Below, in pieces: positions 16,118-47,015 of a stretch of DNA of 64,000 nucleotides. Source of the stretch: Malacoraja senta (Eukaryota); NCBI GenBank assembly GCA_038087875.1, contig CM075990.1, forward strand, positions 17,734,001 to 17,798,000, given 5' to 3'. The stretch's first letter is position 1. Every line of letters begins with the position of its first letter. The translations under genes were made by a program, and so were the position numbers. The notes below the pieces were generated by a model. That model searched no databases, was not told where the DNA came from, and saw nothing but the letters and a program-made list of their open reading frames with translations.

Positions 16118-16317
16118 NNNNNNNNNNNNNNNNNNNNNNNNNNNNNNNNNNNNNNNNNNNNNNNNNNNNNNNNNNNNNNNNNNNNNNNNNNNNNNNNNNN
16201 NNNNNNNNNNNNNNNNNNNNNNNNNNNNNNNNNNNNNNNNNNNNNNNNNNNNNNNNNNNNNNNNNNNNNNNNNNNNNNNNNNNNNNNNNNNNNNNNNNNN
16301 NNNNNNNNNNNNNNNNN
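16118..16317. other. Assembly gap (200 N)
   Basis: Run of 200 n. Confidence 1.
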
Positions 16318-18939
16318 TGACATGGACGAGCTGGAAGCCTCTGTGCTGAGAATCATGTCTGAGGACGGGTCTGGGGAAGGAGTGGACGAGGAAGAGTCAA
16401 CCAGGCAGGAGGATGGTGAAGATAAGGACGAGGCAACCACAGCCGAAGCCTCGGATGAAGAGGAGGCCGAGAGGAGCAGTGGAACTAAGGAAGACAGCGC
16501 AGAGGAAGGCGGCATAGAGAGTAACGAATCTGAGGAGAAAGTCACTGCATCTGGAGCAGAGAGTGACGCGGGTGCAACAGAAAGCAAATGTGGGGAAGAG
16601 CGTGTAGATGACAGCGCTGCCCAGGCGGAGGGAGGGATGGTGGAGGAGAGTGCAGGTAGTGAAGAGGAGGCTAGAGAGGGAGAAAGCAAAGAGGGAAAAG
16701 CTTTAGAAAGCGAAGAAATTGGTAAATCAATTGAACAGTCTGAAAAGCAAAATCTTACCAAGAGGAAAGACGCCGACGAGGAAAAACTATCAGAAAGAAA
16801 ACCAGAGAGAGAAGATATTACAGGAATCACGGAGTCTAATGAGCAGGAAGCAGCAGAAACAAAAGCAGCGGCTGAAGAGGTTAGCACAAGCGATAAAACC
16901 GAGAGTGTGAAACAAGGAGCAATGGAGGAAAGTCACCGTAAAGAGGGAAGAAGCGGCAAGGGACAGCGTGAAGAGCGAGTACATCAACAGCAGGAGGAGT
17001 TGAAAGTAATGAACCAAAAAGCAACTGTTGCGTCTGAAGTTAGAGGGGAAAGTGAGGGTCATAAGAAAGAGGATAAAGTGGAGCAATATCCACAGAAAGC
17101 AAAAGAGGAATCACAAGGAGACAAGAGAGAAACTGCTCCCCAAGTGTTAGCAAAAGAAAGCGAAAGTCAGAAAGCTAAAGTTGAAACAAGGGAAGAAATA
17201 ACAACGCCTGAGATGAATGGGCAAGTGGAGAAATCACACCATCAGATAGAAGGCAACAAGAAAGCCTATATTTCCAAGGAGGGGGAAGAAGCCAGTCAAG
17301 AGAAAGAAGTAACAATGGAAGAACAGAGTGAGAAAGAGAAAGTAGAAAGTGAAGAAAATGTAGAGAAAATCTCAGTAGAAAGTGTGGAAGAAAAAAATGT
17401 AGCTGAAACTCCCAAAAGCAAGGACCAACAATCAGGGGACAGTGGCCCACAATCAGGAGACAAGACTCAACAGTCTGGGGACAAGAGTCCACTATCAGGA
17501 GACAAGAGCCCACAGTCTGGGGACAAGAGTCCACTGTCAGGAGACAAGAGCCCACAATTAGGGGACAAGACTCAACAGTCTGGGGACAAGAGTCCACTGC
17601 CAGGAGACAAGAGCCCACAGTCTGGGGACAAGAGTCCACTATTAGGGGACAAGACTCAACAGTCTGGGGACAAGAGTCCACTGTCAGGAGATAAAAGTCC
17701 ACAATCAGGAGACAAGAGTCCACAGTCTGGGGACAAGAGTCCACAATTAGGGGACAAGAGTCCACAGTCTGGGGACAAGAGTCCACTGTCAGGAGATAAA
17801 AGTCTACAATTAGGAGACAAGAGCCCACAGTCTGGGGACAAGGGTCCACTATCAGGAGACAAGAGCCCACAGTCTGGGGACAAGAGTCCACTATCAGGAG
17901 ACAAGAGTCCACAATTAGGGGACAAGAGTCCACAGTCTGGGGACAAGAGTCCACAATCAGGGGACAAGAATCCACAGTCTGGGGACAAGAGTCCACAGTC
18001 TGGGGACAAGAGTCCACAGTCTGGGGACAAGAGTCCACTATCAGGAGACAAGAGTTCACAATCAGGGGACAAGAGTCCACAGTCTGGGGACAAGAGTCCA
18101 CAATCAGGGGACAAGAGTCCACAGTCTGGGGACAAGAGTCCACTATCAGGAGACAAGGGTCCACAGTCTGGGGACAAGAGTCCACAATCAGGAGACAAGA
18201 GTCCACAATCACGAGACAAGAGTCCACAATTAGGGGACAAGAGTCCACAGTCTGGGGACAAGAGTCCACTATCAGGAGACAAGGGTCCACAGTCTGGGGA
18301 CAAGAGTCCACTATCAGGAGACAAGGGTCCACAGTCTGGGACAAGAGTCCACAATCAGGAGACAAGAGTCCACAATCACGAGACAAGAGTCCACAATTAG
18401 GGGACAAGAGTCCACAGTCTGGGGACAAGAGTCCACTATCAGGGGACAAGAGTCCACAGTCTGGGGACAAGAGTCCACAATCAGGGGACAAGAGTCCACA
18501 ATCAGGGGACAAGAGTCCACAGTCGGCGGAGAAGATCCCACCGTTTGGGGACAAAGAAACACAGTCTGGGGAGAGGAGCCCGCAGTTAGGGGAGAGGGTC
18601 ACAGGGTCAGGAGACAGAAGCCCACAGCCTGGAGACAAAGGACTACAGTCGGGAGATAAGGTCGCACAGTCAGGAGACAAGCGCCCACCGTCTGGGGACA
18701 AGGACTCAGTGGCCATCATAAATGGGCTGGACATCAACATGGATAATGAAGAAAGTGAATCTGAAATTGACAAGAAGATGCCAAATACCTCAGAGGTCAT
18801 TCAGAAGATCACCGAGAAGACAACTGAGCACACAAAGATATCTAAAGTCTCCATCACCCGCACAGTGAATGAGGATATGAAGACGGTGGTAACAGTGGCC
18901 AAAGCAGATCCAAAGAGTGATGCCAAAGAAAGTAAATGA
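16318..18939 (+). CDS. Terminal (tail) exon of a neurofilament medium/heavy-like protein with KSP repeats; 5' exons missing in gap; apparent 1-bp deletion at 18338-18340
   Basis: Glu/Lys-rich ORF 16322-18340, then about 61 heptads containing 41 KSP motifs. Restoring one G joins ORF 18709-18939 (AIINGLDIN...IQKITEK...KVSITRTV), which resembles the NEFM C-terminus (VVTNGLDLS...EKITSE...KSVTVTQKV, from memory). The start DMDELEASVLRIMSEDG aligns with NMAELEADYKIVMDQEG of the neighbouring neurofilament gene. Confidence 0.85.
17432..18711 (+). repeat. Coding 21-bp tandem repeat (TCTGGGGACAAGAGTCCACAG, SGDKSPQ), about 61 units
   Basis: Counted by hand: 52 well-conserved and 9 degenerate heptads. 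Confidence 0.95.
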
Positions 18940-19306
18940 AGACCGAGGCAGCATTAGTTCTTCGATGAGAGAAATGCATGTTTCACAGCAGAGCGGGCAC
19001 TGCAGAATTTCCAGATCATAGAAATTAAACTCATGATTGTCCAACGGGAAGTGTGAGAATTTCTCAGGGGAGAATAATTTTAGTTTTAATTTAATGCATG
19101 AATAATTGCACAACTAAACATTTGCCATGGGGTGCTTTGACTTTGACGAGTAGATTTAACGATACTAAACACAGCATAATAATTTTTTTGTTGCTATTAA
19201 TCTATTGAAGTACATGCACATTGTGTATTGGGATTTTGACACTTTTGATGAACTGCTCCACCAACTGTTGCCACAAATACAATCAACCAACAAAGAGCCA
19301 ACCACA

Positions 19307-19312
19307 AATAAA
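19307..19312 (+). terminator. Candidate polyadenylation signal of the KSP neurofilament gene
   Basis: AATAAA about 370 bp after the TGA, at the end of an AT-rich 3' UTR-like stretch. Confidence 0.5.
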
Positions 19313-20050
19313 TGCACTTTGTCCGAGAAACCAGACCTGTTTAACACGATTCATTTATGTGAACCAGTGACTCGGGCTACCTTCACATTTAATCATTCCG
19401 CCTGCAACAGTCATTTCTTCACCTCTCCCCCAACCCCTCCTCCTTTTAGTTGATCTTTGAAATCTCTCCCTTTCTACTCAGTTTTCACCCAAACCTCATC
19501 TCATATTGCTGGGTATTTAGTTTGAGAGCTCTGCTTGGGAAGGGAATTACATCAAAAGCACCAAGTAAATACAATATGTGGTTTATCTTCATCCAATACA
19601 CGCTGGATATTTTGTTGCCTGGACTTTGACTTAATGCAACCTCCCTACTACAACAGATACAACAATTAACACAGTGAATCACAGTCTAGATTAGAGCAGT
19701 TTCCTGTTGTACGCACCAGGCTGCAGCGGAATTCCTTGTTCACGTGAATAATAAATACCACAATAAACACAACAGCGAGCGCACACCAGCAGAATGGTGC
19801 AGGACTGTAGTAAATCTGAAGTAGTGCACAAATAATATTAAAGCACAATAACTGAATAACTAATGAAGTAGAGTTAAAGGTCGGAGTATGCGGCAGCAAC
19901 TCCGTGGTGATTGGATCAGGAGTCTGACGGCAGTGCGGCTTTCGAGCTTCCCAGCTTCTGCATCCTCACCCACAAGGGGCATCATTGACGATACTTCCAG
20001 CTCTCCTGATGCAACGCACCATGAAGATGGACTGGATGGAACAACAGGAG

Positions 20051-20058
20051 CGAGAGCG

Positions 20059-20109
<51 letters not shown>
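20051..20109. repeat. (GA)n microsatellite
   Basis: Directly visible. Confidence 0.95.
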
Positions 20110-20113
<4 letters not shown>

Positions 20114-20640
20114 GTGAGTGAGCGCAGAGTTGAGACAAAGTGAGAGAGCGATGAGACAGACGAGAGGGAGAGAGGCACACACACACCAAGGCCCATGGAG
20201 AGCCAAGGACAGAGTGAGAGAGGGCCTGAGGAGTAGGAGCTGTGTGTTCTGTGGCGATGACAGGTCTACCGTGCCCGCAGCTCCACTACGCTGCTGGGTC
20301 TCCGATCGTCTATCGATCCGAGCCTGTTGTGGGCTGTGTGACTAGGAAACCCCAATGGCCCGCCCCCGTCTGGGCGCAGAGAATCCCCCCCCCCCTATCC
20401 CCGCAACCACCATCCTCCCGCAACCCCCTCCCCACCTCCCCCCTCCCCAATCTCTCTCCCCCTACACCTCCACCCTCTCAACCCCCTCCCCCATCTTCCC
20501 CACTCCTCCAATCTCCCACACCTCCACCCATTGATGGAGATAAAATAGTGACAAATTGTGCATTACAATGCAGAAACCATTTACTTAATATAACATCAGC
20601 ACAGAAGTTAAAAGGATTTCAAATGTCAGACTTCACCTTT

Positions 20641-21372
20641 AGGTAGACAAAAAATGCTGGAGAAACTCAGCTGCGTGTGGGGGGGGGGGGGGATTAGAGA
20701 CGTCACTGTTCATACCGCTGGGGTGTAAACTACACAAGTGAAATATAAGGTGCTGTTCCTCCAATTTGTGCTGGGCCTCACTTTGGCAATGGAGGAGGCC
20801 CAGGACAGAAAGATCAGAGTGGGAATGGGAGGGGGATTGAAGTGCTGAGCAACCGAGCGATCAGGTTGGTTAAGACGGACTGAGCGGAGATGTTCAGCGA
20901 AGCGATCGCCGAGCCTGCGCTTGGTCTCGCCGATGTAGAGAAGTTGACAACTGGAACAGCGGATGCAGTAGATGATGTTGGAGGGGGTGCAGGTGAACCT
21001 CTGCCTCACCTGGAAAGACTGAGTTGGTCCTTGGATGGAGTTGTGGGGGAGGTAAAGGGACAATTGTTGCATTCGCTGCGGTTGCAGGGGAAAGTACCCG
21101 GGGAGGGGGAGGTTTGGGTGGGAAGGGACAAATTGACCATGGAATTACGGAGGGAACGGTCTCTGCGAAAAGCAGAAAGGTGAGACAATGGGAAGATGTG
21201 GCCAGTAGTCTTTTTCCTGTCCACCCCACCACCCCCGACATCAGTCAGAAGAAGGGTCTCGAACTGAGACGTCGCCAATTCCTTCTCTCCATAGATGCTG
21301 CCTCACCCGCTGAGTTTCTCCAGCATTTTTTGTCTACCTTTGATTTTTGCAGCATCTGCAGTTCTTTCTTAA
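20641..21372 (-). mobile_element. Penelope-like retroelement fragment (GIY-YIG endonuclease) with inverted terminal-repeat copies
   Basis: ORF 20710-21072(-): QVRQRFTCTPSNIIYCIRCSSCQLLYIGETKRRLGDRFAEHLRSV. 20641-20670 is the reverse complement of about 21310-21339. Confidence 0.88.
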
Positions 21373-21384
21373 ACACTTCACCTT

Positions 21385-21682
21385 TAGTTTAGTTCAGAGA
21401 TACAGCGCGGAAATAGGCCCTTCGGCCCACCGAGTCCACACCGACCAGCGATCCCCGCATATTCACACAATCCTAAACACGCTAGGGACAATTTACATTT
21501 ATACCAAGCCAATTAACCTACAAACCTGCACGTCTTGGGGGTGTGGGGGGGAACCGAAGAAAACCCACATAGGTCATGAGGAGAATGTACAAACTCCGGA
21601 CAGACAGTACCATAGTCAAGATCGAACCCGGGCCTCTGGCGCTGTAAGGCGGAAACTCTACCGCTGCGCCACTGCGCCGCCC
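21385..21682 (-). mobile_element. tRNA-derived SINE (HE1/V-SINE-like)
   Basis: Minus-strand head GGGCGGCGCAGTGGCGCAGCGGTAGAG (A box) and GGTTCGATC (B box), central gagtttgtacattctcc segment, CR1-like tail gggccgaagggcct and (CTAAA)n end. Confidence 0.85.
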
Positions 21683-22089
21683 TTATGCCCTATCTGATGG
21701 GTGGTTTACAATGGAAATCAAATTAAAAACACAATTAAACGTGTCTGAATTGAAGGAGGCTGAGGGATGATCTTATAGAGGTGTATATAGCCTGGTCCAT
21801 ATCTGGTGTGTGGTCTGCGACATTCAATGCGTGAGCTCCGCCAACACTTCCCGTCTCATCCACTCTGAGCTCACGGGTCCCTCTGCACCACAACCCTTCA
21901 CTGCGGGGACACACGCTTACAAGTTTAGTTGCGCAATGATCTATATTTCCTCCGTCATCAGCAATAAATACTGCAAGCAAGTGAATAGATATCTTCTAAA
22001 CGTCTGGTGGGACTGAGATCGCACGTTCCCCATTCTGCTGTCTATACAGTCTCTAAAATAAGCTCAGCATTAGAGGGAGAACCTACAGC

Positions 22090-22560
22090 AGATTCTAGTG
22101 TTGACAGCACCCTGAACCATGATGTGGATCTATTCCACAGTAAATTGATCAACTGTACCTGTCCAAATGTTTTTTTAATGTTATAGTACCCGCCTCACCT
22201 ACCTGCCTCAACTACCTGCCTCAACTACCTGCCTCAACTACCTGCCTCAACTATCTCCTGTGGCAGCTCGTTTCATCCACCAACCACCAACACCACACAG
22301 AGGGAAAAGCTGCCCCACAGATTTCTATTAAATCTTTCTCCTCACCTGAAACATATGTCCTCTGGTTCTTGATTCACCAACTCTGGATAAAGAACTGTGC
22401 ATTCACCTCATCTATTCCCCGTATGATTTTATACACTCTATAGGATCACCCCTCACCTTCCTGAGCTCCAAGGAATAAAGTTCCAGCTGGCCCATCTTCT
22501 CCCTACAGCTCAGTCTAGGCGACATCCTTGTAAATCCTCTCTGCACTCTTTCCAGGTCAG
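22090..22560 (-). mobile_element. Decayed CR1 3' fragment containing a 13-bp tandem repeat (ACTACCTGCCTCA x4)
   Basis: Reverse complement of CR1 C-terminal sequence (tcacccctcaccttcctgagctccaaggaataaag). Confidence 0.7.
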
Positions 22561-25500
22561 TGACATGATACCATGGCAGGATTAGAACTCAAGTCACTGA
22601 TCTTCTGACTGGGCACCTGGACAGCTCACTTGGTAAGTAACCACTGAGCTCAAAGCCAGGCAGTATCTGTGGAGGCAACGTTTTGGTCGGGACATTCTTC
22701 AGACTGATGCCAGCATGACCTTACTTAAAGACCTTGCGTAAAGAACGGACTGTAATCGCTGAATCACATCGGCCCACACAGTGGCATGCCCTCATAAACA
22801 CTGGAAATTACCATAGGAACATACTACATCTATGCACGCACACGTACACACGCACACATACACACACACAACACACACACGCAATGCACACACATGCATG
22901 CATACACAGTACGCTTACAATCCCTGCAGGTATGCACAAATATCCTGATCTAAAGACAAACCCACTTCACACGGTGCTCCTATTTATTAGAATCTGCTAT
23001 TTATTAGAATCCGTATAGAGTAAAGAAACAGGGATTCTGGCCCATCCTTTGCCAACCATCAAGTGCCCATGTTACACTAATCCTAACCATATGCTTATTC
23101 CACCTGCATTCCCAAAGCATACACACCCCCTCCAATTTCACTCCACAAGCTAACCTCATAAAAGTCAATTGATTTAACCAGAAAAGAGAGAGTATCCTGT
23201 TTATGAAGAAGGGTCTCGATGTCGCTTATCCATTTGCCTCCACAGATCATGCCTGACCCACGGTCTGTATTTTGTTCTAGTGTTCCACTCTCTGCACAAG
23301 AACGATGAGACTGAGTATCTGGAGTCTCCGATGGTGCAAGTATTCCCCATTGCTTCAGTCAGCTGATTATCTGCTTGAGCAAGGATCAGAACAAACTGTC
23401 CTAGCAGAGATGATATGTACTAGTCCTAGTACATCCACTTCACCCCCCTGACACTTCAGGTGGAGAATCTTTAAATTCCTGTATTTGGAAATGGCAAAAT
23501 GCAGAGCAGTAATAGAGGTCCAGTCCACAGTTACAGCGTCCCCTTATATTCCATCTGCGGGGATTGTGAGTGACTGGTGTCTTAGCGGCCGTTCACATGG
23601 TGATCAGCGTTAACTGATGAGATAATACAAGGGGATAGATTAGGTGAGCATAGACAGGCCGGGGCAATGGTATCACTTACTCTGAACAATGCACAGTCTC
23701 CCACCCAAGTCATTCCCTCTTATCTCCTCTCCCACAAGCTGCAAAAGGATGAAAGCACGAACCACCAGATTCAAGGACAGTTTCTTCGCCTGTATTCAGA
23801 CATTTGAACAGACCTCTCATAAGCTAACAATGAATGCCAGATCTCCCAATCTACCCGCTGCTGCATTTACACTTTTTTTTTAAATGCGCTCTTACTCTGT
23901 AGCTGTAAGATTGCATTCTGCACACTGTTTATTTTCTATGTTGTACCATCTGGCGCACACAGGTATATATGATCTGCCTGGATAACATGCAAACCAAAGT
24001 CTTTCACTGTATCTAGGTACACGTAACAACAATGAACCAATATTCTGTCTCTGTCTGGCCTGCTGTTTATGTCGCGATTGTATTGTTAGCGGGTACACAC
24101 CACTCTGAGATAATGCAGAAACATTACCAATGGGATCAAATCCACATGTTTATTCTGGTTCGGTATTCCAAAACTAAAATCAAAGGGGTTAAACAAGGAT
24201 TTCAGTGCAGTGGATATTATATGCAAAGAAAATAGCAATAAAAATGGCACAGCTACCAACGATAATGTTTGAGCACTTGTTTAGTGAAACAGGAAAGCTG
24301 TGCAGCACAAAGTAACTCAGTGGTTAATAATACAGTGAATGTAGTTTGTTATTCATTAATTTGTTGATGACACTCTACGTGAGATATGAACCATAATACG
24401 ATTGTTTTATTAATGAATGTATTGGTATTCCACTGATAAAGTTATCACGACAAGTTCCTCTGCTACTCCCCTCACTCCACACTCCCCCAACTTTTACAAC
24501 ACTGCTGGAGATAACAGGTTCAATACCATGCACAATAGATGATTCTGTTCGTTCCGCATTAAATATTAAGCCTTAAAAGCCATTATTGATCATTGGTTGA
24601 GAGCAGAAGTGAAGTCATCACCAGCGAGAGGCTGCCAGTGTGAACTTGTCACATCCATCATCCCTGCCGAGAGTCCGCACTGCATCCGGAGAGCCGCAGT
24701 ATCTCAAGGCCATTCTCAAAGGCGTCAAGTACCCCAGGCTCTGTGCCACACCATTCCTGTGCGGGCGAGAAGTCAATACAGTAAATGTGTCTGGCTACCT
24801 TCTTTCTGAAATGACGTAAAACAGTTTATGTTCAGAAAAATCACAAACCAAACGGTTTAAAAATAATTAGTTCCTGTGTTCTCAGTAACAGCTCCCACAA
24901 CAGCTGCCATTTGGGATTCACACAGTCTACACAGAGGGATAACAATGGCAGAGGTTGGCAGACAGAGACTTGACGCTGTGTGGTCAGAGAGCAGGACCCA
25001 GAGAGGGATTCCAGAGCATGGACAGTGGGCAGCTGAAACCAATAGTCAGCATCACTCCAGGACTACAGGGGTGGGGATGTGAGGAAATTGTAGCTGCTCG
25101 CTAACATTGCTGAAGCCACAACAAGCCGGGAAGCTCTGAACTGTTTACGTTCCCTGCCACAGGAACAGATTCAGTCATTGCAACGTTAGGGAATCGGATA
25201 ATGAGCCGAGTCCAGAATCTCTGCTCCATGGGCATTCAGTGACCGAAGCTGATATTGTTTGACATTGCGGTAAAGCCGTTCTAACCATATCCGTAGAAAT
25301 ATTTGAACAAGAATATAGGTGGGATGGAAACATCGCCCTCAATTCCATCTGGAATAATTCCCTCTCTTGACTCACAATGCTGCCTTTGTACCCTTTGTCC
25401 CTGAGTGGAATTTCACCCAGACAGCTGGCCATCTCCTGATCAGACCTACTCACACTTTACTACTCTCCTGGTCATCTGTCCTCACCAAATACTTTGTCCA

Positions 25501-25589
25501 CTATCCCTGGTTATTCCTCCACAGTACAAAGGAACATTCAAACTCTCAGCAGGTGTGCTGGACCAAGGAAGGGGGCAGAGAGAACTTGC

Positions 25590-25775
25590 CATAGAGTCAG
25601 AGAGTGATACAGTGTGGAAACAGGCCCTTCAGCCCAACTTGCCCACACTGGCCAACATGTCCCAGCTACACTTGTCCCCTACTCTGGGCAAGAGACTCTG
25701 TGCATCTACCCGATCTATTCCTCTCATGATTTTCTACACCACCAAAAGATCACCCCTCATCCTCCTGCACTCCAT
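25590..25775 (-). mobile_element. CR1 3' fragment, internally deleted
   Basis: Closely matches parts of 28080-28540. Confidence 0.7.
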
Positions 25776-26149
25776 GGAATACAGACCCAGTCCTGGCAAC
25801 ATCCCCGTAAATGCCAGAAGGGTTATTGTAAAGGGGGACCTCAGTGCCAAGGTCAAATGGAGAAACTGGGTGGGTTAAATTTCCAGCATTTTCATTCACG
25901 CTTACATCACTTCAAAGCATCGCTGGTGAAACCCTGGTATATCTGTATGCCAGCTTCGCCCCTTGAGCTATTCATGGTATATCCGTACCCACCCCACTCC
26001 CCAGTCTGACTCCATTGTATATCTGTACCCACCCTTCCCTTGGACTGAGACCCTGGTATATCCATACGACCCTCCCTGAGCTGTCCATGGTATATCCTTA
26101 CCCACCCCACTCCCCTCACCCCCCTTTCGAGCTGAGCTGAGCTGAGCTC

Positions 26150-27320
26150 CATTCTAAGGGACAGGGTCTACCTGCATTTGGAAAACAAAGACTGAAGAAG
26201 GATAGTCAGCATTGCCTTGTGTGGAAAATCATGCCTCACCAATTTGAATGAGGTTTTTGAGGAAACGGAGGATTGACGAGGGCAGAGTAGTAATGCCATC
26301 TACTTAGACTTTAGCAGAACCTTGACAAGGTCCTGTCTGATTAGTTGCTCTGGAAGATTAGATCACTGGGAATATGGGGCGGGCTAGCCAAGTGGACACA
26401 GAATTGGCTTTGGTGGAAGGAGGCAGAGGGTGATGGTGCTGGGTTGTTATTAGAGGCCTGTAACCAGTGGTGTACTGCAGGGGCCGGTGCAGGGTCCATG
26501 TGGTTTGACATCTATATTAACAAGTTGGATGACAATGTTGCTAACATGGGTAATAATGCACATGGTACCATGTGGATGGCACCAAAATTGGTGGTGTGGT
26601 TATCTACAATTACTACAGGATCATGATGAACAGGGGAAGCGAGGAATGGCAAGTGGAATTTAACATAGATGATGACATAGTTTTGCATTTTGGTAAGTTA
26701 AACCAAGGCTAGACTTACACGGTAGGGAGTAGGGCCCTGGAGAGTGTGGTAGAGCAGAGAGAACTAAGGGAGTACAGGTAAATAGTTCCCTGAATGTGGC
26801 GACACAGGTAGATGGGGAAATGAAGAAGGCTTTTGGAATGCTTGCCTTCTTTTGTCAGAGAACTGAGTACATGAGTTGGGACATCATGTTACAAGTTGTT
26901 TGTGAGGCCCACAGAGTATTGTGTGCAGTTCTGGTCACCCAACTATAGCAAGGATGTCATGAGGTATGCATGGGTGGAAATAAGATTCACAAGATATTAG
27001 TGGGACAGAAAGTATTGAGTAATAAAGAGAGGCTGGAAGACTGGGACATTCCCCTGTAGCATAGAGGTTGAGGAGTGGCCTCATAAAGGTGTATGAAATC
27101 TCCAGGAGATAGATTAGGTGAACAGTCTTTCCCAGGGTAGAGGCATCTAAAACTAGAGGGCATTGATTTAAGGTGAGAGGGCAATGGATTAATAGTAACC
27201 TGAGGAGCAATGTTTGCCACACAGAGGGTGGTGGGCATGTGGAGCCAGCGGTCGGTGTTGGTTGTAGAGGCGAGGTACAAAAACATTAGACAGGTAGATA
27301 GATAGGAAAGGTTTTGGAGA
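26150..27320 (+). mobile_element. Old decayed CR1 RT fragment
   Basis: aaatcatgcctcaccaatttga, tacttagactttagc, tatattaacaagttggatgac, gagtattgtgtgcagttctggtcacc, aactagagggcat. Confidence 0.8.
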
Positions 27321-28079
27321 CACAGGCAACTACAGATGCTGAAATCTTGAGCAGAACTCAGAGTGCCGGAGGAACAGCGCGCCAGGCAGCATCAGTGGAG
27401 GCAACGTACAGATGATGTTTACGGGTCGGGATCCTTCTTCAGGTTGCCTGTCGCTGAGTTCCTCCAGCACGGTGTTTTCCTGAAGACTTAGAGGATGTGG
27501 GCCATGCGCGAGTGGTGCAGAAGTGTTTCCGTGCTGTAATGACTCTGACTCCATGGTATATCTCTGCTACCGCGCCCAGGGCAGTGGTGACACTGCGAGT
27601 GATGTTCAAATGTGAAAATATTTCTATGTTCCTAAGTTTCTGGTCAATTGAATTTCTCGTCAGATTTAACCAGCGGTCACCTTGCTCTGACCTGCACCTG
27701 TGACCATGCGGCCCGGGGTCTCCCCCGCAGTCTCCCCCCCCGCAGTCCCCCCCCCCCTCCCCCACAGCCCAGCCCAGCCACCGGCACCAGCAACCGCTGC
27801 AGTAACGCGGCGGCCAAGTCCTGACTCAGAGCCGCTGCAGCAGAGGGCGGGGCGGCAGAGACAGTCTCCCTTAAAGCGGCACCGTGTCTGTCTATCTCCC
27901 ACCCCGACTCCCCCCACCACCACCCCTCCCCCACTGACCCCATCTCCTCATGGAGCGGCCCCAGCAAGGCACTGCATGCTCTCGGGAGACGGCAGCCACG
28001 GTGGGGGAATGGGTGATTGGAGCGCCAAGCCTGGCCTGCTCCACGATGGATAGCGTCTCATCTCCGGGCCTTGATGGTG

Positions 28080-28700
28080 GTCATAGAGTCATATAGAGTG
28101 AAAACAGGCCCTTCAGCCCAGCTTGCCCACACCGACCAACATGTCCCAGCTACACGTCCCACCTGCCTGTGTTTGGTCCATATCCCTCCAAACCTGTCCT
28201 ATCCATTTACCGATCAAACTGTTTCTAAAACGTTGGGATAGTCTCAGCCTCAACTACTTCCTCTCGCAGCTTGTTCCATACACTCACCATCCTTTGTGTG
28301 AAAAGGTTACCCCTCAGATTATTATTTAATCTTTTCCAGTTCACCTTAAACCTATGTCCTCTGGTCCTGCATTCGCCTACTCTGGGCAAGAGACTCTGTG
28401 CATGTACCCGATCTATTCCTCTTATGATCTTGTACACATCTATAAGATCACCCCTCATCCTCCTGCGCTCCAAGGAATAGAGACCCAGCCTGCTCAACCT
28501 CTCCCCATAACTAACACCCTTTAGTCCTGGCAACATCCTCGTAAATCTTCTCTGGATCCTTTCTAGCTCAACAACATATTTCCTGTAACACGGCGCCCAG
28601 AACTGATGCAATACTCTAAATGCGGCCTCACCAACGTCTTGTACAACTGCAACATGACCTCCCAACGTCTACATTCAATACTCTGACTGATGTAGGCTAA
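28080..28700 (-). mobile_element. CR1 3' portion, interrupted by a Penelope insertion and resuming at about 29933-29990
   Basis: ORF 28225-28665(-): FWAPCYRK..LERIQRRFTRMLPGL...RMRGDLID...RTRGH...NLFTQRMV. Confidence 0.88.
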
Positions 28701-28704
28701 TTAA

Positions 28705-29935
28705 TGCGCCTTCATCTGACTTCATCCATTTCACCACTAACTTCCATCCGGCACTCAAATTCACCTGGACCATTTCCGACATCTCCCTACCGTTTCTAGA
28801 CCTCACCATCTCCATCACAGGTAATAGACTACTGACTGACATCTACTACAAACCCACTGACTCCCATGGCTATCTGGACTACACTTCTTCAACATCTGCA
28901 GTTCCTTCTTATACACTTCTTCCCACCCTGCTTCCTGTAAGGACTCCATCCCCTACTCCCAATTCCTCCATCTACACCGCATCTGCTCCCAGGATGAGGT
29001 GTTCCAGACCAGGGCATTGGAGATGTCCTCATTCTTTAGGGAACAGGGGTTTCCCTCTTCTATAGATGAGGCTCTCACCAGGGTCTCCTCTATATCCCGC
29101 AGCTCCGCTCTCACTCCCCATCCCCCTACTCTTAACAAGGGCAGAGCCCCCCTTGTCCTCACCTTCTACAATACCAGTCGTCACATACAACATATAATCC
29201 TCCAACATTTTCGCCACCTCCAACGGGATCCCACCACTTGCCACATCTTCCCATCTCCTCCCCTGTCGGCTTTTCACAGAGACCATTCCCTCCGTAACTC
29301 CCTGGTCAATTCGTCCCTTCCCACCCAAACCACCCCCTTCCCTGGTACTTTCCCTTGCAACCGCAGGAAATGCTACACTTGTCGCGTTACCTCCCCCCTT
29401 GACTCCATCCAAGGACCCAAGCAATCTTTCCAGGTGAGGCAGAGGTTCACCTGCACCTCCTCCAACCTAATCTGTTGCATCCGTTGTTCCAGGTGTCAAC
29501 TTCTCTACATTGGTAGACCAAACGCAGGCTTGGCGATCGCTTCGCTCAACACCTCCCCTCAGTTCGCAATAACCAACCTGATCTCCCGGTGGTTCAGCAC
29601 TTCAACTCCTCCTCCCATTCCGAATCTGACCTGGGCCGCCATTGCCAGAGTGAGGCCCAGCGCAAATTGGAGGAACAGCACCTCATAGTTCGCTTGGGCA
29701 GTTTACACCCCAGCGGTATAAACATTGACTTCTCCAATTTCAGGTAGTCCTTGCTTTTTCCCTCCTTCACCTCCCCCTCCCAGCTCTCCCACATGCCTAC
29801 TGTCTCCGCCTCTTCCTTTCTTTTTCCCACCCCTCCCCCACATCAGTCTGAAGAAGGGTCTCAACCCGAAACGTCACCTGTTCCTTCTCTCCATCGACGC
29901 TGCCTCACCAGCTGAGTTTCTCCAGCATTTTTGTA
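28705..29935 (+). mobile_element. Penelope-like retroelement, 5'-truncated (RT thumb, GIY-YIG endonuclease, terminal repeat with hammerhead motif)
   Basis: FLDL..TDIYYKPTDSH.YL, SIPYSQFLHL.RICS, FREQGFP, PLVLTF, QVRQRFTCTSSNLICCIRCSRCQLLYIG. Ends with ctgaagaagggtctcaacccgaaacgtc. Confidence 0.92.
29848..29875 (+). ncRNA. Minimal type I hammerhead ribozyme motif (PLE-associated)
   Basis: CUGAAGA, extra A, helix II GGGU-[CUCA]-ACCC, GAAAC, GUC cleavage triplet. Helix III is only the palindromic ACGU; helix I is short (GU/AC). Confidence 0.65.
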
Positions 29936-30404
29936 CACCTACTGTGCTCTGTTCTACAACACCCCACAGAGCCCTGCCATTCACAGTATAAAGGTGTAAA
30001 TGATGTGAAGGCGTGGAGTTCGCTGCAGAGGCCGCCCCTGAAGCCACAATCTTCCGCTCAATGGTGACGCCAGATAGTTAATGGTGGCGACGGCGCTGTA
30101 TGTCAACGGGGGGTGAGTGGTGCAGGAGATGGTCCATGCGCTCCATGTTATGGTGTACATGTGACCTGTCCTTCATCGGACCGTGCTTGGACGCTCCTAC
30201 CTTCATGCGGCTGGAGATGTTCTCCCGTGTTGGGAGCTCCAGGCTTGACACGTGTTGTGATGAAGGAATGGGGACGTATTTCTCAGTCAAGATGGTTTGT
30301 GGCGTGTCGGGGGGGGGGGGGTCAGCGCTCCGCTCTTGCTCTTCGCAACCAACGAGGCAGCGTGGGGAAACGCTGCCAGCGTAGACTGGGCAACTTGCTT
30401 TCAA

Positions 30405-30600
30405 TACAACATAGAACAGTCCAGTACGAGAACAGACCCTTCGGCCCACAACGTTGGTGCCGGACATGATGCCGAGTTAAACTAATCTCCTCTGGCTGCA
30501 CGTGATCCATATCCCTCCATTCCCTATATATCCATATGCCTATCTAAAAACCTCTAATCGCCGCTATCATATCTGCCTCCACCACCCTCTGTGTAAAAGA
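30405..30600 (-). mobile_element. CR1 3' end fragment
   Basis: aacatagaacag...acccttcggcccaca...tgatccatatccctccattccc. Confidence 0.65.
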
Positions 30601-30647
30601 ATGCACTGTCCGTCAACATGGTTTGAAGTGGTGGAAGAGACATTCTG

Positions 30648-31446
30648 TTGGATAGGACGTACATGGTAAATGGTAGAGAATTGAGGAATGCAGTTGAACA
30701 GAGGGATCTAGGAATAACTGTGCATAGTTCCCTGAAGGTGGAATCTCATGTAGATAGGGTGGTAAAGAAAGTTTTTGGGGTGCTGGCCTTTATAAATCAG
30801 AGCATTGAATATAGAAGTTGGGATGTAATGTTAAAATTGTACAAGGCATTGGTGAGGCCAATTCTGGAGTATGGAGTACAATTTTGGTCGCCTAATTATA
30901 GGAAGGATGTCAACAAAATAGAGAGAGTACAGAGGAGATTTACTAGAATGTTGCCTGGGTTTCAGCAACTAAGTTACAGAGAAAGGTTGAACAAGTTAGG
31001 TCTTTATTCTTTGGAGTGCAGAAGGTTAAGAGGGGACTTGATAGAGGTCTTTAAAATTATGAGCGGGTTAGACAGAGTTGACGTGGATAAGCTTTTTCCA
31101 TTGAGAGTAGTGAAGATTCAAACAAGGGGACATGACTTGAGAATTAAGGGACAGAAGTTTAGGGATAACTTTAGGGGGAACTTCTTTACTCAGAGAGTGG
31201 TAGCTGTGTGGAATGAGCTTCCAGTGGAAGTGGTGGAGGCTGGTTCGATTTTATCCTTTAAAAATAGATTGGATGGGTATATGGACGGGAAAGGAATGGA
31301 GGGTTATGGTCTGAGTGCAGGTAGATGGGACTAGGGGGAAGTATTTATTTTAATTTTTTTTTTTAATTAAAAAAATGTTCGGCACGGACTTGAAGGGCCG
31401 AGATGGCCTGTTTCCGTGCTGTAATGGTTATATGGTTATATGGTTG
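30648..31446 (+). mobile_element. Young 5'-truncated CR1 with uninterrupted ORF2 C-terminus and (ATGGTTAT)n tail
   Basis: Open 228-aa ORF (EQRDLG...LVRPILEYGVQFWSP...ERVQRRFTRMLPG...NFFTQRVVAVWN); 8-bp tail repeat at about 31423-31446. Confidence 0.92.
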
Positions 31447-31544
31447 GCATAAGAATCCATTGGCATTTTAGCTGCAGTTGTTATTTGAATCTTGCAGCGC
31501 TGGACACCAGCGAAGGGGGGTGGCGAGATCGGACCGGGCATTGC

Positions 31545-31645
31545 CGGTTTAAATGCAAATCAGAGTAAGATTGCAAGCATCGCCAATTTCCTGGAGAGTG
31601 GAGCACCAAATGACGGCGTCAGCACCAGATTCCGCAATAAAAGGT
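31545..31645 (+). promoter_or_regulatory. Putative proximal promoter of the neurofilament gene
   Basis: Octamer ATGCAAAT 31553-31560, CCAAT 31583-31587, inverted CRE half-sites TGACG-G-CGTCA 31611-31621, TATA-like AATAAAA 31636-31642, then Kozak CCACCATG at 31693-31700. Confidence 0.5.
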
Positions 31646-31697
31646 TGTGTGTGTGAAGGGACGCAGCATTGATCCAGACGGCGGCACCGGCTCCACC

Positions 31698-32684
31698 ATG
31701 AGTTTCGGCTGGGAGTTACTCGATGCTTTCCCACCCAGGAGGCTGCCCCGGGACATGGGGGTCCGCACTCCAGCCTGGTCCCTCAAGCATAGCCCCCTGT
31801 CCGCCAGCCGCGGCCTCGGCTCCCCGCTGCACAAGTCCCCGGACAGCGTGCACCTGCTACAGTCCGGAGCGCTGGCCGAGGACCTCGCCGCGCTCGGCAG
31901 CAACGAGAAGCTGCAGATGCAGGGGCTGAACGACCGCTTCGCCGGCTTCATCGACAAGGTACGCCAACTGGAGCAGATGAACCGCGGGCTGGAGGCCGAG
32001 ATCGCGGCGCTGAGGGAGCGGCAGAGCCGCCAGTCCGGACTGGCCGCCGGCTACGAGCCCGAAATGTCGGAGTTGCGGAATCTCCTGGTGGAAGCGGAGA
32101 AGCAGAAAGTACAGCTTGTGTTGGAGAGCGAGCAGGTGCGGGAGAGCGCACAGCGCCTGGCCGAGCGGTGCGAGGCTGAGGCGCGGGCACGCGTGGACAC
32201 ACAGGTCAATGTCCAGGCCTGCAACACTGAGCGGGACAGCAGTAACGTGGCCACACTGGAGCTGCAGCGCAAAGCGCAGTCGCTGATGGACGAGATCGCC
32301 TTCCTGAAGAGTAACCACGAGGAGGAGGTGTCCGACCTGTACAGCCACATCCAGGCGGCGCAGGTGAGCGTGGAGGCGAGGGATGTGGCCAAGGCCGACC
32401 TGGCGGGAGCCCTGCGGGCGATCCGGGCCCAGATGGAAGGCTGCAGCGGCGACAACATGGGCCAGACCGAGCAGTGGTTCGATGCCCGCGTGGCCAAGCT
32501 GAACCAGGCGGCGGCGGTGAACAGAGAGGCCCTGCAGAGCACACGGCAGGAACTGAGCGAGTACAGTCGCCAGGTGCAGTCCCGGGACATCGAGCTGCAG
32601 ACCATGCGAGCGAGGAAGGAGTCGCTGGAGAAGCAGCTGGGCGACGCCGAGGCCCGGCATGACTCCGATCTAGTCGGCTACCAG
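31698..32684 (+). CDS. Neurofilament (NEFM/INA-like type IV intermediate filament) exon 1: head and most of rod
   Basis: ATG 31698 (MSFGWE...), coil 1A NEKLQMQGLNDRFAGFIDKV, EIAFLKSNHEEEV; donor CAG|GTGAGG; 987 bp, phase 0. Confidence 0.95.
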
Positions 32685-32719
32685 GTGAGGAATGTTAGTT
32701 ACAGAGTTAGATTTAGCTC

Positions 32720-32858
32720 ATAGGGCTAACAGAATCAAGGGATATGGGGAGAAAGCAGGAACGGGGTACTGATTGTGGATGATCAGCCTTGATCATTTGA
32801 ATGGTGGTGCTGGCTCGAGGGACCGAATGGCCTACTCCTGCACCTATTTTCTGTTTTT
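32720..32858 (+). mobile_element. CR1 3' terminus in intron 1
   Basis: gatatggggagaaagcagg...gatgatcagcc...gaatggcctactcctgcacc. Confidence 0.8.
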
Positions 32859-33032
32859 ATGGAATGCGGGTCCCTCTTACCCCCCTCCCCCTCCGCTCCC
32901 GGCTGTTTACTCCACAAAGTGCTGGAGTAACAGCGGGTCTGGCAGCATCTCTGGAGCAGGAATAGGTGACGTTTCGGATCGAGAACTTTTTTTATTGTAA
33001 TTGCGAATTCCAGTCTGCTGTGTGTTTTACAG

Positions 33033-33157
33033 GACGCCATCCAACAACTAGATAACGAACTAAAAAATACAAAGCGGGAAATGGTGCTGCACTTGCGGGA
33101 GTACCAGGAGCTTCTGAACGTGAAGATGGCCTTGGATGTGGAGATCGCGTCTTACAG
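33033..33157 (+). CDS. Neurofilament exon 2 (coil 2B)
   Basis: ttttac[43 protein letters not shown](R)|GTAGG; 125 bp, the characteristic size of this exon in type IV genes. Confidence 0.96.
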
Positions 33158-34429
33158 GTAGGACGCGAGGGCCAGAGCAGGCTGGCGGCGGGATTCTCTC
33201 TCTCCTCCCCCCACGCCGGGAGTTATCTGGAGGGAATTCCCCCTCAGCGGCGAGAACGATGCAGGGGTTAAAACTGCGCAACTCCCAATCACCATTCACT
33301 TTGGACTTGGACAGCAACATGTAAAACCGCGATGCGGAATCAATAAACGGCCGCTGTGCAGCTGCTGCAAGATTGATTCATGCCGGGAATCCGCGGCAGG
33401 TTCAGCAGTTGCGCAAATACCGCGGCTTGGAGACGGGGTAACCCGGTCTGCACATCCACAGAGAGCAGGTCACGGTCTCCGTGCCACAGCCATGTCCACA
33501 CTCGCCGCACACTAGCCGCGCTCTCCCCTCCCCTCCCCTCCCCACTGCGCCTTCATGTACACCCCCACCCCGCCTGCCTGAAGGAGCATCACCTCTGTCC
33601 ACTGCCCGTCAACCCCTCCCTCAGCCTACGCTCTGCAACGTCCCGCAGCTGTCTCTGTCCACCCTTCATGACCAGACACCTCCAGCACATCTCCCCAGAA
33701 CCGTTTTTTTAAAATATACAAAGACTTTATTTCACTTTACTTTATAATCACAGTACAAACACTGGAAGGGCCAATGTTGCCAAACAGTGTACATCAAACC
33801 ACAACGGTATATCGGGTAAACCCGACGCACTGCCCCCTGCGCTCTTTCCTGCACCCCCTCATTTTCGGATCCCACCCCCCTGTACAGTCAACTTCCCAAC
33901 GAGTAAAACGCCGGCCCCGGATACAGCGCGCCAGTGTCGCTGGCCACAGGCGACACAGGATGAAGACAAACTCATCCCATGGGTCTCGTCTGTCTTATTA
34001 TGAACGACGTTTATCTGGAAATATAAAAAGGAGGAGTTTGCAAACCAAATACTGAGTTGCGATTCCCAACTCTTGCTGCCGTCCGGCGGGGAAGGATTTA
34101 ACTGTTAGAGAGCTCTGTTATTCCCGCAGCCCCGCCTCGGGTGCCGGTCGCCCCAGTCCATGTCCCGGCCCCAACGCGAAATGGGCCGTTCTGAACTACA
34201 TTAATCATTTAAAAAAATCAGTGTTGCTTATTTCGGAGCGCAGGTGTATATCGCGGCGGGCAGGTGAGGTCCGGGGACTGTGCCGCCTTGTGCTGGCGGC
34301 GGGAGAGGAGAGCAGCGGGGACAGGCGCTTAACCATGGAATGAGATACATGGAACTGCGGATGCCGGTTTACAAATAGACACAAAGTGCTGGAGTAACAG
34401 CAGGTCAGACAGCGTCTGTGGAGAACATG

Positions 34430-34600
34430 ACAGGCACAATAACAACATTTAAAAAGACATCTCGACAGGTACATGGACAGGTAAGGGCTAGACATAAGGG
34501 CTAAATGCGGGTAAATTGGACTAGCTTAGGGACATCTCGGTCAGTATGGACGAGTTGGGCCAAAGGGCCTGATTCTGTGCTGTATATTTATCTATGACTC
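34430..34600 (+). mobile_element. CR1 3' end fragment in intron 2
   Basis: catttaaaaagacatctcgacaggtacatgga...gggccaaagggcct. Confidence 0.75.
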
Positions 34601-34633
34601 TGAAGCTGTAACATTATTGTTTTGTATTTGAAG

Positions 34634-35960
34634 GAAACTGCTTGAAGGGGAAGAGACAAGATTCGGTGACTACACTCCCTCAACATATACGTATAAACCA
34701 CAGCCATTAACACATGCAACCTACATGACAACCAAGACCAAAGCCACCTCAACAAAGGTCATGCCTCAGTACAGGTTTGTAGAAGAAATCATTAGTGCAA
34801 CAACGAAGGAAGTTAACATGGCAGAGTTGGAAGCTGATTACAAGATAGTGATGGATCAGGAAGGAGAAACACAAGGTGAGGCAGCAGAAAGAGAGGGAGT
34901 TGCGGACAAGGAACCAAGTGAAGCAGAAGAAGCTGCAGAGGGAGAGGAAGCTGAGGTAGAAGATAAGGGTGGGGAGGAAGATGCAAAGGGGGATGTTGAA
35001 GAAGAGGAAAAAGATGAAGAGGAGGTTGCAGAAGGAAAGGATGAAGAGGACACAGGTGAAGATAAGGTTGAAGAGGCAGAAGAGAATCAGGTTGAAGGAA
35101 GTAATGGAGAGGTTAAGAAGGGGGAGGAGGAGCAGGTGGAAGAGAAAGAGGAGGAGGAGGTCAAAGAGGAGCTCAAAGAGGAGGTCAAGGAGGAGGAGGT
35201 CAAAGAGGAGGAGGTGGTCAAAGAGGAGGAGGTCAAAGAGGAGGAGGAGATCAAAGAGGAGGTGGAGGAGGAGGTGGTCAAAGAGGAGGTGGTCAAAGAG
35301 GAGGAGGTCAAAGAGGAGGAGGTCAAAGAGGAGGAGGTCAAAGAGGAGGTCAAGGTCAAGGACGAGGTGGAGGAGGTCAAGGAGGAGGCTGAAGGAAAGG
35401 AAGAGAAGCTTAAAGATGAAGAGACAGTTGAAGTAGCTAAAGAAAAGGTTGAAGAGAAAGTAGTGAAGGAAAAGTTTGAGGAGAAGGTTATAGAGAAGAC
35501 TGAAGAGGAAAAGGCTGACATAAATGATGGAGAGATGGTTGAAGAGAAGACAGAAGAGAAGGCAGAAGAGCAAAAAGCTGAAGGGAAGGCTGATGTAAAG
35601 GATAAAGCGGAAGAGAAGGCGGAAGAGATGGTGGAAGAAAAGGCGGAAGAGAAGAAAGAAGAGAAAGCAGAAGGAAAGGTTGAAGAAAAGATTTCTGAAC
35701 AGAAGGCCGAAGCAAAAGGCATTTCTAAGACGAAGGAAGGTGAAGGTGTAACGGGAGCCTCAGCGGTGAAGGGGGGCGATCAGGTTGAGGATAAACTAAT
35801 GGGCAAGGATGAAAAGGCAAAAGTGCCAGACACCAAAGTAGCAGGAGGGGAGAGCCAGTTAGCTTCAGGAACCACGCCAATGAATGGTAAAGAAACAGTG
35901 ACAGAGACTGAAACTAAAGATGAAGCAGCTTCCACAGAGAACGGCCAGGGGACACAGTAA
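34634..35960 (+). CDS. Neurofilament exon 3: rod end and Glu-rich tail (full protein 812 aa)
   Basis: ttgaAG|(R)KLLEGEETRF; NEFM-like tail motif KVMPQYRFVEEII; E/K-rich tail to TAA 35958-35960. Exon sum 987+125+1327=2439 bp, in frame. Confidence 0.95.
35148..35390 (+). repeat. Coding 15-bp-based repeat (GAGGAGGAGGTCAAA, KEEEV)
   Basis: EEVKEEEVKEEEVVKEEEVK... in the tail. Confidence 0.85.
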
Positions 35961-36224: not shown

Positions 36225-36230
36225 AATAAA
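36225..36230 (+). terminator. Candidate polyadenylation signal
   Basis: First AATAAA about 265 bp after the stop codon. Confidence 0.55.
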
Positions 36231-46037: not shown

Positions 46038-46129
46038 TTAAGCTTCCAATTCAAGACCCAGGCCAAGTTTGTGACCACCAGAATTGAAACCCTTCCCATC
46101 AATCAGGGTGCACAGTGTCAGCTTTATCC
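46038..46129 (-). CDS. VDAC2: VDAC2 coding exon 8 (last)
   Basis: AG|(G)[32 protein letters not shown]; 92 bp. Confidence 0.95.
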
Positions 46130-46869: not shown

Positions 46870-46927
46870 CTGGCCTAAGAACCTGGCTGTAACCTATTCC
46901 AATTAGGCTGGAGTTGTTGACTTTTGC
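46870..46927 (-). CDS. VDAC2: VDAC2 coding exon 7
   Basis: AKVNNSSLIGIGYSQVLRP(G); 58 bp with AG/GT ends. Confidence 0.95.
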
Positions 46928-47015
46928 CTGAAAGAGATCAGTAAGATGTTAGCATGGCAAAAATATTGAATTATATTTAAACGACAGAGATTAGAAACCA
47001 GAAAGGTGCACTCAC

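What the first reader, a model, noticed from the sequence alone, without database searches (positions are those of the whole stretch)
16318..35960. Tandem pair of NEFM-related neurofilament genes next to VDAC2, possibly a paralogue cluster absent from mammals
Seen: two same-strand neurofilament genes about 13 kb apart, converging on VDAC2. Their tail exons share a segment (DMDELEASVLRIMSEDG vs NMAELEADYKIVMDQEG), which suggests tandem duplication. The complete gene has the 3-exon NEFM/INA layout but a short, divergent head (about 70 aa). Established (from memory): human VDAC2 is flanked by SAMD8 and COMTD1 with no neurofilament gene, and NEFL/NEFM, INA and NEFH lie at other loci. Inference: these may be a separate type IV intermediate filament lineage kept in cartilaginous (and perhaps bony) fish, which pipelines would label only NEFM-like or NEFH-like.
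Basis: partly seen in the sequence, partly recalled or inferred. Interest (0 to 1): 0.7.

Follow-up and report, generated by a model that had tools for sequence, protein, structure and literature searches.

The report
Unnamed sister gene of neurofilament-M
These two skate genes belong to an old, unnamed branch of the long-tailed neurofilament proteins that shape nerve fibres; it most likely arose when the genome of early jawed vertebrates doubled, survives in sharks, bony fish, coelacanth and salamanders, and was not found in reptiles, birds or mammals.

Summary
The observation mostly stands. Gene 2 (31698-35960) is a complete three-exon type IV neurofilament gene, spliced as predicted in contigs from a related organism. 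Gene 1 is only a tail exon that starts at an assembly gap. Both converge on a VDAC2-type gene. In rod trees the genes fall in a clade of their own (100/100) beside NEFM and NEFH, with members in sharks, rays, chimaera, coelacanth, bichirs, gar, bowfin, teleosts and salamanders. Cartilaginous fish keep canonical NEFM on another contig (8 of 8 species). The little-skate orthologue lies on chromosome 34, the published second-genome-duplication partner of the chromosome type that carries NEFM. Best reading: an unnamed NEFM ohnologue. Databases label it NEFM-, NEFL-, NEFH- or INA-like, or si:dkey-27m7.4; ten literature searches found no description. Two extras: sharks have three tandem copies, two with rods homogenised within each lineage while heads and tails stay distinct; and gene 1 here has 41 KSP motifs where nine orthologues have none. 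Loss in amniotes, neuronal expression and co-assembly are inferred, not shown.

The parts
16118..16317 (.). Assembly gap (200 N); head, rod and start of the tail of gene 1 are missing here or beyond
   Evidence: no second rod in the window by tblastn
16319..18939 (+). Gene 1, tail exon fragment (about 872 codons with one frame break), paralogue type A of the unnamed clade
   Evidence: 5 of 5 type A tails align from the first residue at E 4e-20 to 8e-17, while type B, type C and NEFM tails give only low-complexity matches at E 3e-6 or weaker; C-terminal match to P0020; same last six residues as chimaera type A
17428..18702 (+). 21-bp tandem array coding 7-residue units; 41 KSP motifs; one-base frame break near 18336
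31698..32684 (+). Gene 2 exon 1: head (about 70 aa) and most of the rod; CpG-rich
33033..33157 (+). Gene 2 exon 2 (125 bp), end of coil 2
34634..35960 (+). Gene 2 exon 3: rod end motif and 434-aa acidic tail (36% E+D, no KSP), paralogue type C
36225..36230 (+). Candidate polyadenylation signal of gene 2
   Evidence: AATAAA at 36225; contigs of X1-X3 reach about 36200, the end of the laid stretch
46038..50834 (-). VDAC gene, eight coding exons, VDAC2 by sequence and by position
   Evidence: best solved matches are VDAC2 for both exons tested; position

Best explanation
Both genes are tandem copies of an unnamed fourth long-tail neurofilament lineage (called X here). X is most likely the copy of NEFM made by the second, gnathostome whole-genome duplication: NEFM stayed on the human-8p/chicken-22 type chromosome and X on its partner, the human-10q22/chicken-6 type, next to VDAC2. 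X duplicated locally in cartilaginous fish (types A and B before chimaeras split off, C later; this skate window has A and C) and seems to have been lost in amniotes. How it works (inferred from family knowledge, not tested): the rod forms coiled-coil heterodimers with short-tail subunits (NF-L, alpha-internexin) and builds into neurofilaments; the long acidic tail sticks out as a side arm that sets filament spacing and axon calibre, as NF-M does. Gene 2 gives a side arm of fixed charge (no KSP); gene 1 gives a longer arm with about 40 proline-directed phosphorylation sites, NF-H-like but gained separately. Shown: gene structure, splicing in a relative, separate clade, separate canonical NEFM, chromosome of the little-skate orthologue. 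Inferred: origin by genome duplication, loss in amniotes, neuronal expression, co-assembly, phosphorylation.
For: IQ-TREE on 62 rods x 314 columns: X 26 rows 100/100, NEFM 13 rows 100/98, NEFH 6 rows 100/99; X and NEFM each split into a cartilaginous and a bony branch; X+NEFM 90/81; jawless-fish rows outside at 83/73. Same X clade in FastTree on 140 rows. AU tests on 33 rows reject cartilaginous X with cartilaginous NEFM (p 7.5e-60) and X with two internexin-like rows (p 4.6e-4). A tail motif outside the tree columns separates them: 35 of 38 X rows against 0 of 21 NEFM rows, and 0 of 38 against 20 of 21 for the NEFM motif (motifs chosen after seeing the sequences). Canonical NEFM and X lie on contigs of different length in 8 of 8 cartilaginous species for which both lengths are given. 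The little-skate orthologue P0001 is on a contig of 19,860,700 bp, exactly the end of Leri_34C in PMC10115646 SI Table 8; Znf503 and Kat6b are on Leri_34C; SI Table 3 lists LER34 as 1alpha and LER35 (=chicken 22) as its 1beta partner; Nefm-1 sits in a gene-number block with Kat6a, Dkk4, Fgfr1, Kctd9, Adam28 and a VDAC. Zebrafish chr13 has COMTD1, IFIT13A, a gene called NEFH and VDAC2 in a row (PMC4065003). First intron at the same codon as in read-through models of NEFM and NEFH-clade rows. Function of NF-M tails and KSP sites: PMC10758125 passages.
Against: The three-way split X/NEFM/NEFH is unresolved: X+NEFH p 0.41, X+NEFM p 0.43, and the smaller tree prefers NEFM+NEFH at 66. The AU test with the mixture model on all 62 rows did not finish. 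That Nefm-1 is on LER35 is read from gene numbering, not from a coordinate. The zebrafish chr13 gene was not seen as a sequence. No whole genome is held for this window, so NEFM and INA could not be sought in this species. The tissue of the spliced contigs is unknown. The salamander rows have a long branch (1.24). The skate type C rod is fast-evolving (branch about 0.3), which could mean relaxed function.
Confidence: 0.75

Rival explanations
1. X is the sister, or the parent locus, of NEFH rather than of NEFM: NEFH moved off the paralogon and X stayed, so mammals keep a close relative of X under the name NEFH.
For: X+NEFH is not rejected (p 0.41). The zebrafish gene beside VDAC2 was labelled NEFH. 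NEFH lies outside the human 4/5/8/10 paralogon (recalled), so it must have moved from somewhere.
Against: The best model gives X+NEFM at 90/81. Teleosts hold both an NEFH-clade gene (P0305, named neurofilament heavy) and X, so X is not simply fish NEFH. Type A orthologues have no KSP array.
Confidence: 0.12
2. X arose by a single-gene or segmental duplication of NEFM in the jawed-vertebrate stem, or in the first genome duplication, and its place on the partner chromosome does not reflect the second duplication.
For: Only the timing (before the shark/bony split) is well supported; the branch that excludes jawless fish is weak (83/73; 47).
Against: X sits on the published 1alpha chromosome whose 1beta partner is the chicken-22 type, and a VDAC accompanies both genes. 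A chance landing on that partner is unlikely.
Confidence: 0.08
3. The genes are translocated or lineage-specific copies of canonical NEFM or INA.
For: NCBI names them NEFM-like or alpha-internexin-like; same three-exon layout.
Against: Rejected by AU tests, by the tree, by tail motifs and by canonical NEFM elsewhere in 11 named cartilaginous rows among the 120 listed.
Confidence: 0.02
4. Gene 1 is a decaying pseudogene, or its KSP array is a minisatellite or assembly artefact without protein function.
For: No rod in the window; one frame break in the array; among all 27 distinct unit variants only 8 are synonymous (p 0.18); no second skate copy of the array was seen.
Against: The fragment begins exactly at a gap; the C-terminus after the array is intact and matches type A; 93 of 152 differences between units fall on third codon positions and 6 of the 13 common variants are synonymous against 21% expected (p 0.035; units are not independent); the break is a G-run one base short, a typical read error.
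Confidence: 0.15

Closest known systems
NEFM (neurofilament medium), including the canonical cartilaginous-fish NEFM (P0190, P0203, P0270)
   Same: Gap-free rod alignment, 52-57% rod identity, same first-intron position, long acidic tail of similar charge, a related FVEE motif after the rod
   Different: Separate clade, different chromosome, different tail motif, no Pfam Filament_head hit, no NEFM C-terminal end, tandem copies
NEFH (neurofilament heavy)
   Same: Long tail; gene 1 has a KSP repeat array like the NEFH row P0305 (41 against 22 KSP)
   Different: Separate clade; the array is absent from 9 of 9 other type A tails, so it looks independently gained
si:dkey-27m7.4 (unnamed zebrafish gene; name carried by coelacanth entry H3AHM1)
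   Same: The coelacanth protein with this label is in clade X, so automated gene trees already hold the family
   Different: A placeholder name; one table row in one paper (PMC5854894); the zebrafish sequence itself was not seen here
Lamprey NF-95/NF-180 type and hagfish NF-M-like proteins (P0055, P0101, P0080)
   Same: Belong to the same long-tail group, 100/100
   Different: Branch outside X+NEFM+NEFH with weak support; probably the pre-duplication state
Cryptic ohnologues lost in mammals, such as Bmp16, Pax10 and Kazald2 (search listing only)
   Same: Same pattern: duplicate from a genome doubling, kept in fish, missing from well-studied species, mislabelled
   Different: Different gene family; here with tandem copies and rod homogenisation

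Membership tests
Type IV intermediate filament, long-tail neurofilament group | Alpha-helical rod of about 310 aa with the conserved start and end motifs | tested here: met
   Pfam Filament 4e-67; 311 aa without internal gaps against human NEFM; gene 2 only
Type IV intermediate filament, long-tail neurofilament group | Neurofilament-type intron positions (two introns near the rod end) | tested here: met
   Introns confirmed by joints; first intron at the same codon as read-through models in the NEFM, NEFH and X clades; the second position matches NEFM from recall only
Type IV intermediate filament, long-tail neurofilament group | Rod groups with NEFM/NEFH/NF-180 | tested here: met
   48-row clade at 100/100
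Type IV intermediate filament, long-tail neurofilament group | Neuron-specific expression | not testable with these tools
   Spliced contigs exist but the tissue is coded
Type IV intermediate filament, long-tail neurofilament group | Co-assembly into filaments with NF-L or alpha-internexin | not testable with these tools
   Needs cell or in vitro assembly
NEFM orthologue | Rod inside the NEFM clade | tested here: not met
NEFM orthologue | No other canonical NEFM in the genome | tested here: not met
   Canonical NEFM on another contig in 8 of 8 cartilaginous species; not testable in this species
NEFM orthologue | NEFM tail motif and Filament_head domain | tested here: not met
   0 of 38 X rows have the NEFM motif; no PF04732 in 22 of 22 cartilaginous rows
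NEFH orthologue | Rod inside the NEFH clade | tested here: not met
   NEFH rows form their own clade at 100/99; a sister relation is not excluded
NEFH orthologue | KSP repeat array in the tail | tested here: inconclusive
   Present in gene 1 (41), absent in gene 2 and in 9 of 9 other type A tails
INA (alpha-internexin) | Rod groups with internexins; short tail | tested here: not met
   AU p 4.6e-4 against P0053 and P0156; P0053 matched by eye to the internexin rows in the supplement of PMC2453138; tail 434 aa
Ohnologue of NEFM from the second genome duplication | Split before the shark/bony divergence and after jawless fish | tested here: inconclusive
   First part well supported; second part 83/73
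Ohnologue of NEFM from the second genome duplication | Located on the partner chromosome of the one that carries NEFM | tested here: met
   P0001 on Leri_34C by exact length; LER34/LER35 are the 1alpha/1beta pair; NEFM on LER35 inferred from gene numbers
Ohnologue of NEFM from the second genome duplication | Sister to NEFM in the tree | tested here: inconclusive
   90/81; alternatives not rejected
VDAC2 | Closest to VDAC2 and in the COMTD1/ZNF503/KAT6B region | tested here: met
   Best solved matches are VDAC2 (no VDAC3 among the hits); the linked neurofilament gene's orthologue is on Leri_34C with Znf503 and Kat6b; COMTD1 and SAMD8 were not found in the window

The most novel reading that the evidence does not exclude
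Jawed vertebrates began with four long- and short-armed neurofilament partners plus an extra long-tail subunit, the genome-duplication twin of NF-M, which amniotes lost. Sharks expanded it into a three-gene array in which gene conversion keeps the assembly rods of two copies alike while heads and side arms diverge, giving interchangeable cores with different arms; skates turned one copy into an NF-H-like phosphorylatable brush by amplifying a single motif, independently of NEFH.
Probability: 0.5. Interest if true: 0.65.

Novelty: new member of a known kind. Interest (0 to 1): 0.52.

Why it matters
The textbook set of NF-L, NF-M, NF-H and alpha-internexin is a mammalian view. If X is the lost twin of NF-M, fish, including the zebrafish models used for neurofilament disease and axon calibre, carry extra long-arm subunits that are mislabelled in annotations and left out of gene lists (PMC10683209 names nefma, nefmb, neff1, inab and calls nefla and neflb the remaining two). 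It also gives natural experiments on an open question, what the side arms and KSP sites do for axon calibre (removing all NF-M KSP sites did not change calibre, PMC10758125): sister proteins with and without a new KSP array, and shark copies with near-identical rods but different arms. The kind of event, a cryptic ohnologue, is well known, so this is a solid addition rather than a new principle.

Tried and rejected
No genome is held for this window, so neighbours and other neurofilament genes could not be sought in this species. A search for a second rod or a type B copy in the window found none. Pfam scans of 106 and 67 open frames outside the three genes found no further host gene, COMTD1 and SAMD8 included (106 of the 152 frames listed for the flanks, and 55 of 64 short frames plus 12 others); Rfam found nothing. 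The search with the axolotl protein among longer proteins gave 4 hits of 8000 scored, one salamander and three teleost, no frog or amniote: weak evidence of absence. No run was on record as RNA; the joints come from runs guessed to be RNA. A second short DNA contig with other letters at 31961-32008 in run X6 may be the rod of gene 1, an allele or another filament gene; not resolved. The AU test on 62 rows with the mixture model did not finish. Rows dropped: one search used 140 of the 153 rows that covered the rod (13 near-copies removed); one search used 62 chosen rows; one search used 33 of these; 27 of the 40 bony-vertebrate X rows remain unnamed (26 sit among named teleost rows, P0150 aside all were placed by tree only). 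The idea that the VDAC is the 8p-type (VDAC3-position) gene was taken seriously after and dropped. The NEF alignment of PMC2453138 (parts 12 and 13 of supplement 4, read by eye) shows no X member; its zebrafish chr13 rows are an internexin and another filament gene. Literature searches without a description of the clade; subscription journals and older papers on fish neurofilaments are mostly outside the library, and supplements of PMC3296468 and PMC11979771 could not be read. No fold or complex prediction was run, since a coiled coil would pass by likeness. Earlier findings of this scan held nothing relevant.
Full report
Observation. The window is from a skate: exon 1 of gene 2 is 93% identical to a little-skate protein. 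Gene 2 has three exons (31698-32684, 33033-33157, 34634-35960) with GT-AG introns and encodes 812 aa: a head of about 70 aa, a 311-aa rod that aligns to human NEFM without internal gaps, and a 434-aa acidic tail with no KSP. Contigs from 2 of 4 laid runs, from one study of a related organism, skip exactly these two introns; the runs are only guessed to be RNA and their tissue is hidden. Gene 1 is seen only as a tail exon that starts at a 200-N gap; no other rod is in the window. A VDAC with all eight coding exons faces the pair, 10 kb from gene 2, on the same contig.

Relatives. A search with exon 1 among longer proteins gave 25 hits of 8000 scored, 22 from cartilaginous fish, named NEFM-like, NEFL-like, INA-like or uncharacterised. 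By head and tail they fall into three types. White shark has A, B and C on one contig, two with consecutive accessions. Chimaera has A and B on one contig, and an old fused model gives the order A then B on one strand. Devil ray has A and C on one contig. Gene 2 is type C; the gene 1 tail is type A. No type B is in the window.

Phylogeny. An unfiltered HMMER search (150 listed of 1320) and a search with lamprey NF-95 (120 listed of 2960) supplied references. In a FastTree of 140 rods the window gene lies in a 65-row clade apart from NEFM and NEFH. Named members of its bony branch are coelacanth (two copies on one contig), two salamanders, two bichirs, gar, bowfin and teleosts; 13 of these 40 rows were named. 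IQ-TREE with a mixture model on 62 rows gives X 100/100, NEFM 100/98 and NEFH 100/99, and both X and NEFM split into a cartilaginous and a bony half, so the duplication predates that split. AU tests on 33 rows with a simpler model reject X as a cartilaginous NEFM copy (p 7.5e-60) or an internexin (p 4.6e-4) but do not choose between X+NEFM, X+NEFH and NEFM+NEFH. A motif just after the rod, outside the tree columns, separates X (35 of 38) from NEFM (0 of 21), and the salamander row carries it. Canonical NEFM was found in 11 named cartilaginous rows, on a contig of different length from X in 8 of 8 species where both are given.

Position. The two VDAC exons tested match VDAC2 best, but no VDAC3 is among the solved hits, and the little-skate tables label as Vdac2 a gene numbered among Kat6a, Dkk4, Fgfr1, Kctd9 and Nefm-1, the human-8p type block. 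So sequence did not settle the locus. Length did: the little-skate orthologue of gene 2 is on a 19,860,700-bp contig, the exact end of Leri_34C, which carries Znf503 and Kat6b. SI Table 3 of that paper pairs LER34 (1alpha, chicken 6) with LER35 (1beta, chicken 22). Zebrafish chr13 has a neurofilament gene, labelled NEFH, between COMTD1/IFIT13A and VDAC2. Human chromosomes 8 and 10 belong to one paralogon that holds neurofilament genes (PMC2453138). Together this makes X the likely partner of NEFM from the second genome duplication. That Nefm-1 is on LER35 is inferred from gene numbers; the human gene order at VDAC2 and the places of NEFM, NEFH and VDAC3 are recalled.

Loss. No frog, reptile, bird or mammal row was seen in clade X, and a search with the axolotl protein found only one salamander and three teleost proteins. 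Both searches can miss members, so loss in amniotes is likely, not shown.

Rod homogenisation in sharks (not in this window). For types B and C the exon-1 rod is 92-98% identical within a lineage (4 of 4 pairs; one pair spans two congeneric species) but 69-84% between orthologues of different sharks, while heads and proximal tails mostly show the opposite. The rod tree pairs B with C by lineage and rejects B or C as clades (p 6e-51, 1e-6); the head-plus-tail tree recovers both (97/97, 99/98). The labels were set from heads and tails, so the second tree is partly circular, but the conflict between regions is real. Head and rod share an exon, so shared splicing cannot explain it. Gene conversion is the likely cause; only proteins were available.

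KSP array. Gene 1 has 56 seven-residue units with 41 KSP motifs, at the place where sharks and rays have a single related motif; 9 of 9 other type A tails have no KSP. Differences between units favour third codon positions (93 of 152), with modest statistical support (p 0.035 for common variants, 0.18 for all). One frame break lies in the array. It was seen in this assembly only.

Mechanism. By family knowledge (PMC10758125 passages), long-tail subunits co-assemble through the rod with NF-L or internexin, and their tails set spacing and axon calibre, with KSP sites phosphorylated in the axon. X has the same build and tail charge as NF-M, so this is the likely role. None of it was tested for X.

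What is known. Automated annotation already holds the family: a coelacanth member is named after zebrafish si:dkey-27m7.4, a gene that appears in one table row of one paper. Ten full-text searches found no paper that describes the clade; the library lacks most subscription journals. Papers seen: PMC4065003 one passage; PMC5854894 and PMC12311534 one table passage each; PMC2453138 passages, section 22, the NEF tree text and parts 12-13 of supplement 4; PMC10683209 twelve passages; PMC10451939 one reference line; PMC8733776 five passages; PMC3296468 term search without hits, supplements unreadable; PMC11979771 supplement unreadable, text not read; PMC10115646 rows and part 1 of supplementary file 2 only, other files unreadable; PMC10758125 twelve passages. 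An older report of NF-M from an electric ray is recalled and was not seen.

Verdict. A real, ancient, unnamed paralogue lineage of the long-tail neurofilaments: a new member of a known kind. Separate lineage about 0.95; second-duplication partner of NEFM about 0.75; interest 0.52.

Noticed in passing
P0009/P0013, P0010/P0012, P0016/P0018, P0014/P0022 (shark types B and C): Rods nearly identical within each shark lineage while heads and tails are paralogue-specific: probable recurrent gene conversion in exon 1
   Followed up: partly
P0035: A 556-aa short-tail member whose rod groups with sawshark B and C and whose head looks like a B/C mosaic: possibly a fourth tandem copy; source not looked up
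   Followed up: no
PMC10115646 supplementary file 2, LE07035: The little-skate VDAC in the 8p-type block is labelled Vdac2, so the VDAC3-position gene of skates may be slow-evolving and misnamed
   Followed up: partly
P0184 and P0302; P0057 and P0086: Coelacanth has two divergent X copies on one contig, and the two bichir rows are too different to be orthologues: tandem copies may have arisen again in bony fish
   Followed up: no
window:12652-12696: CpG-rich stretch with an ATG, 14 codons and a GT donor on the minus strand: possible first exon of an unidentified gene pointing away from gene 1; no Pfam hit
   Followed up: partly
window:6103-7464: About 1.3 kb of short-period repeat, open in several frames, no sign of coding
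   Followed up: no
window:55571-57160: GC-rich 20-bp minisatellite, about 79 copies, between CpG-rich flanks upstream of the VDAC coding exons and beyond the second gap
   Followed up: no
window:361-903, 8687-9228, 28228-29685, 52192-52680, 59525-62808: Retroelement fragments: reverse-transcriptase-like frames by eye and a weak GIY-YIG hit at 52192-52680, as in Penelope-type elements
   Followed up: no
window:31961-32008, run X6: A second DNA contig at single-copy depth with four other letters: perhaps the missing rod of gene 1
   Followed up: no
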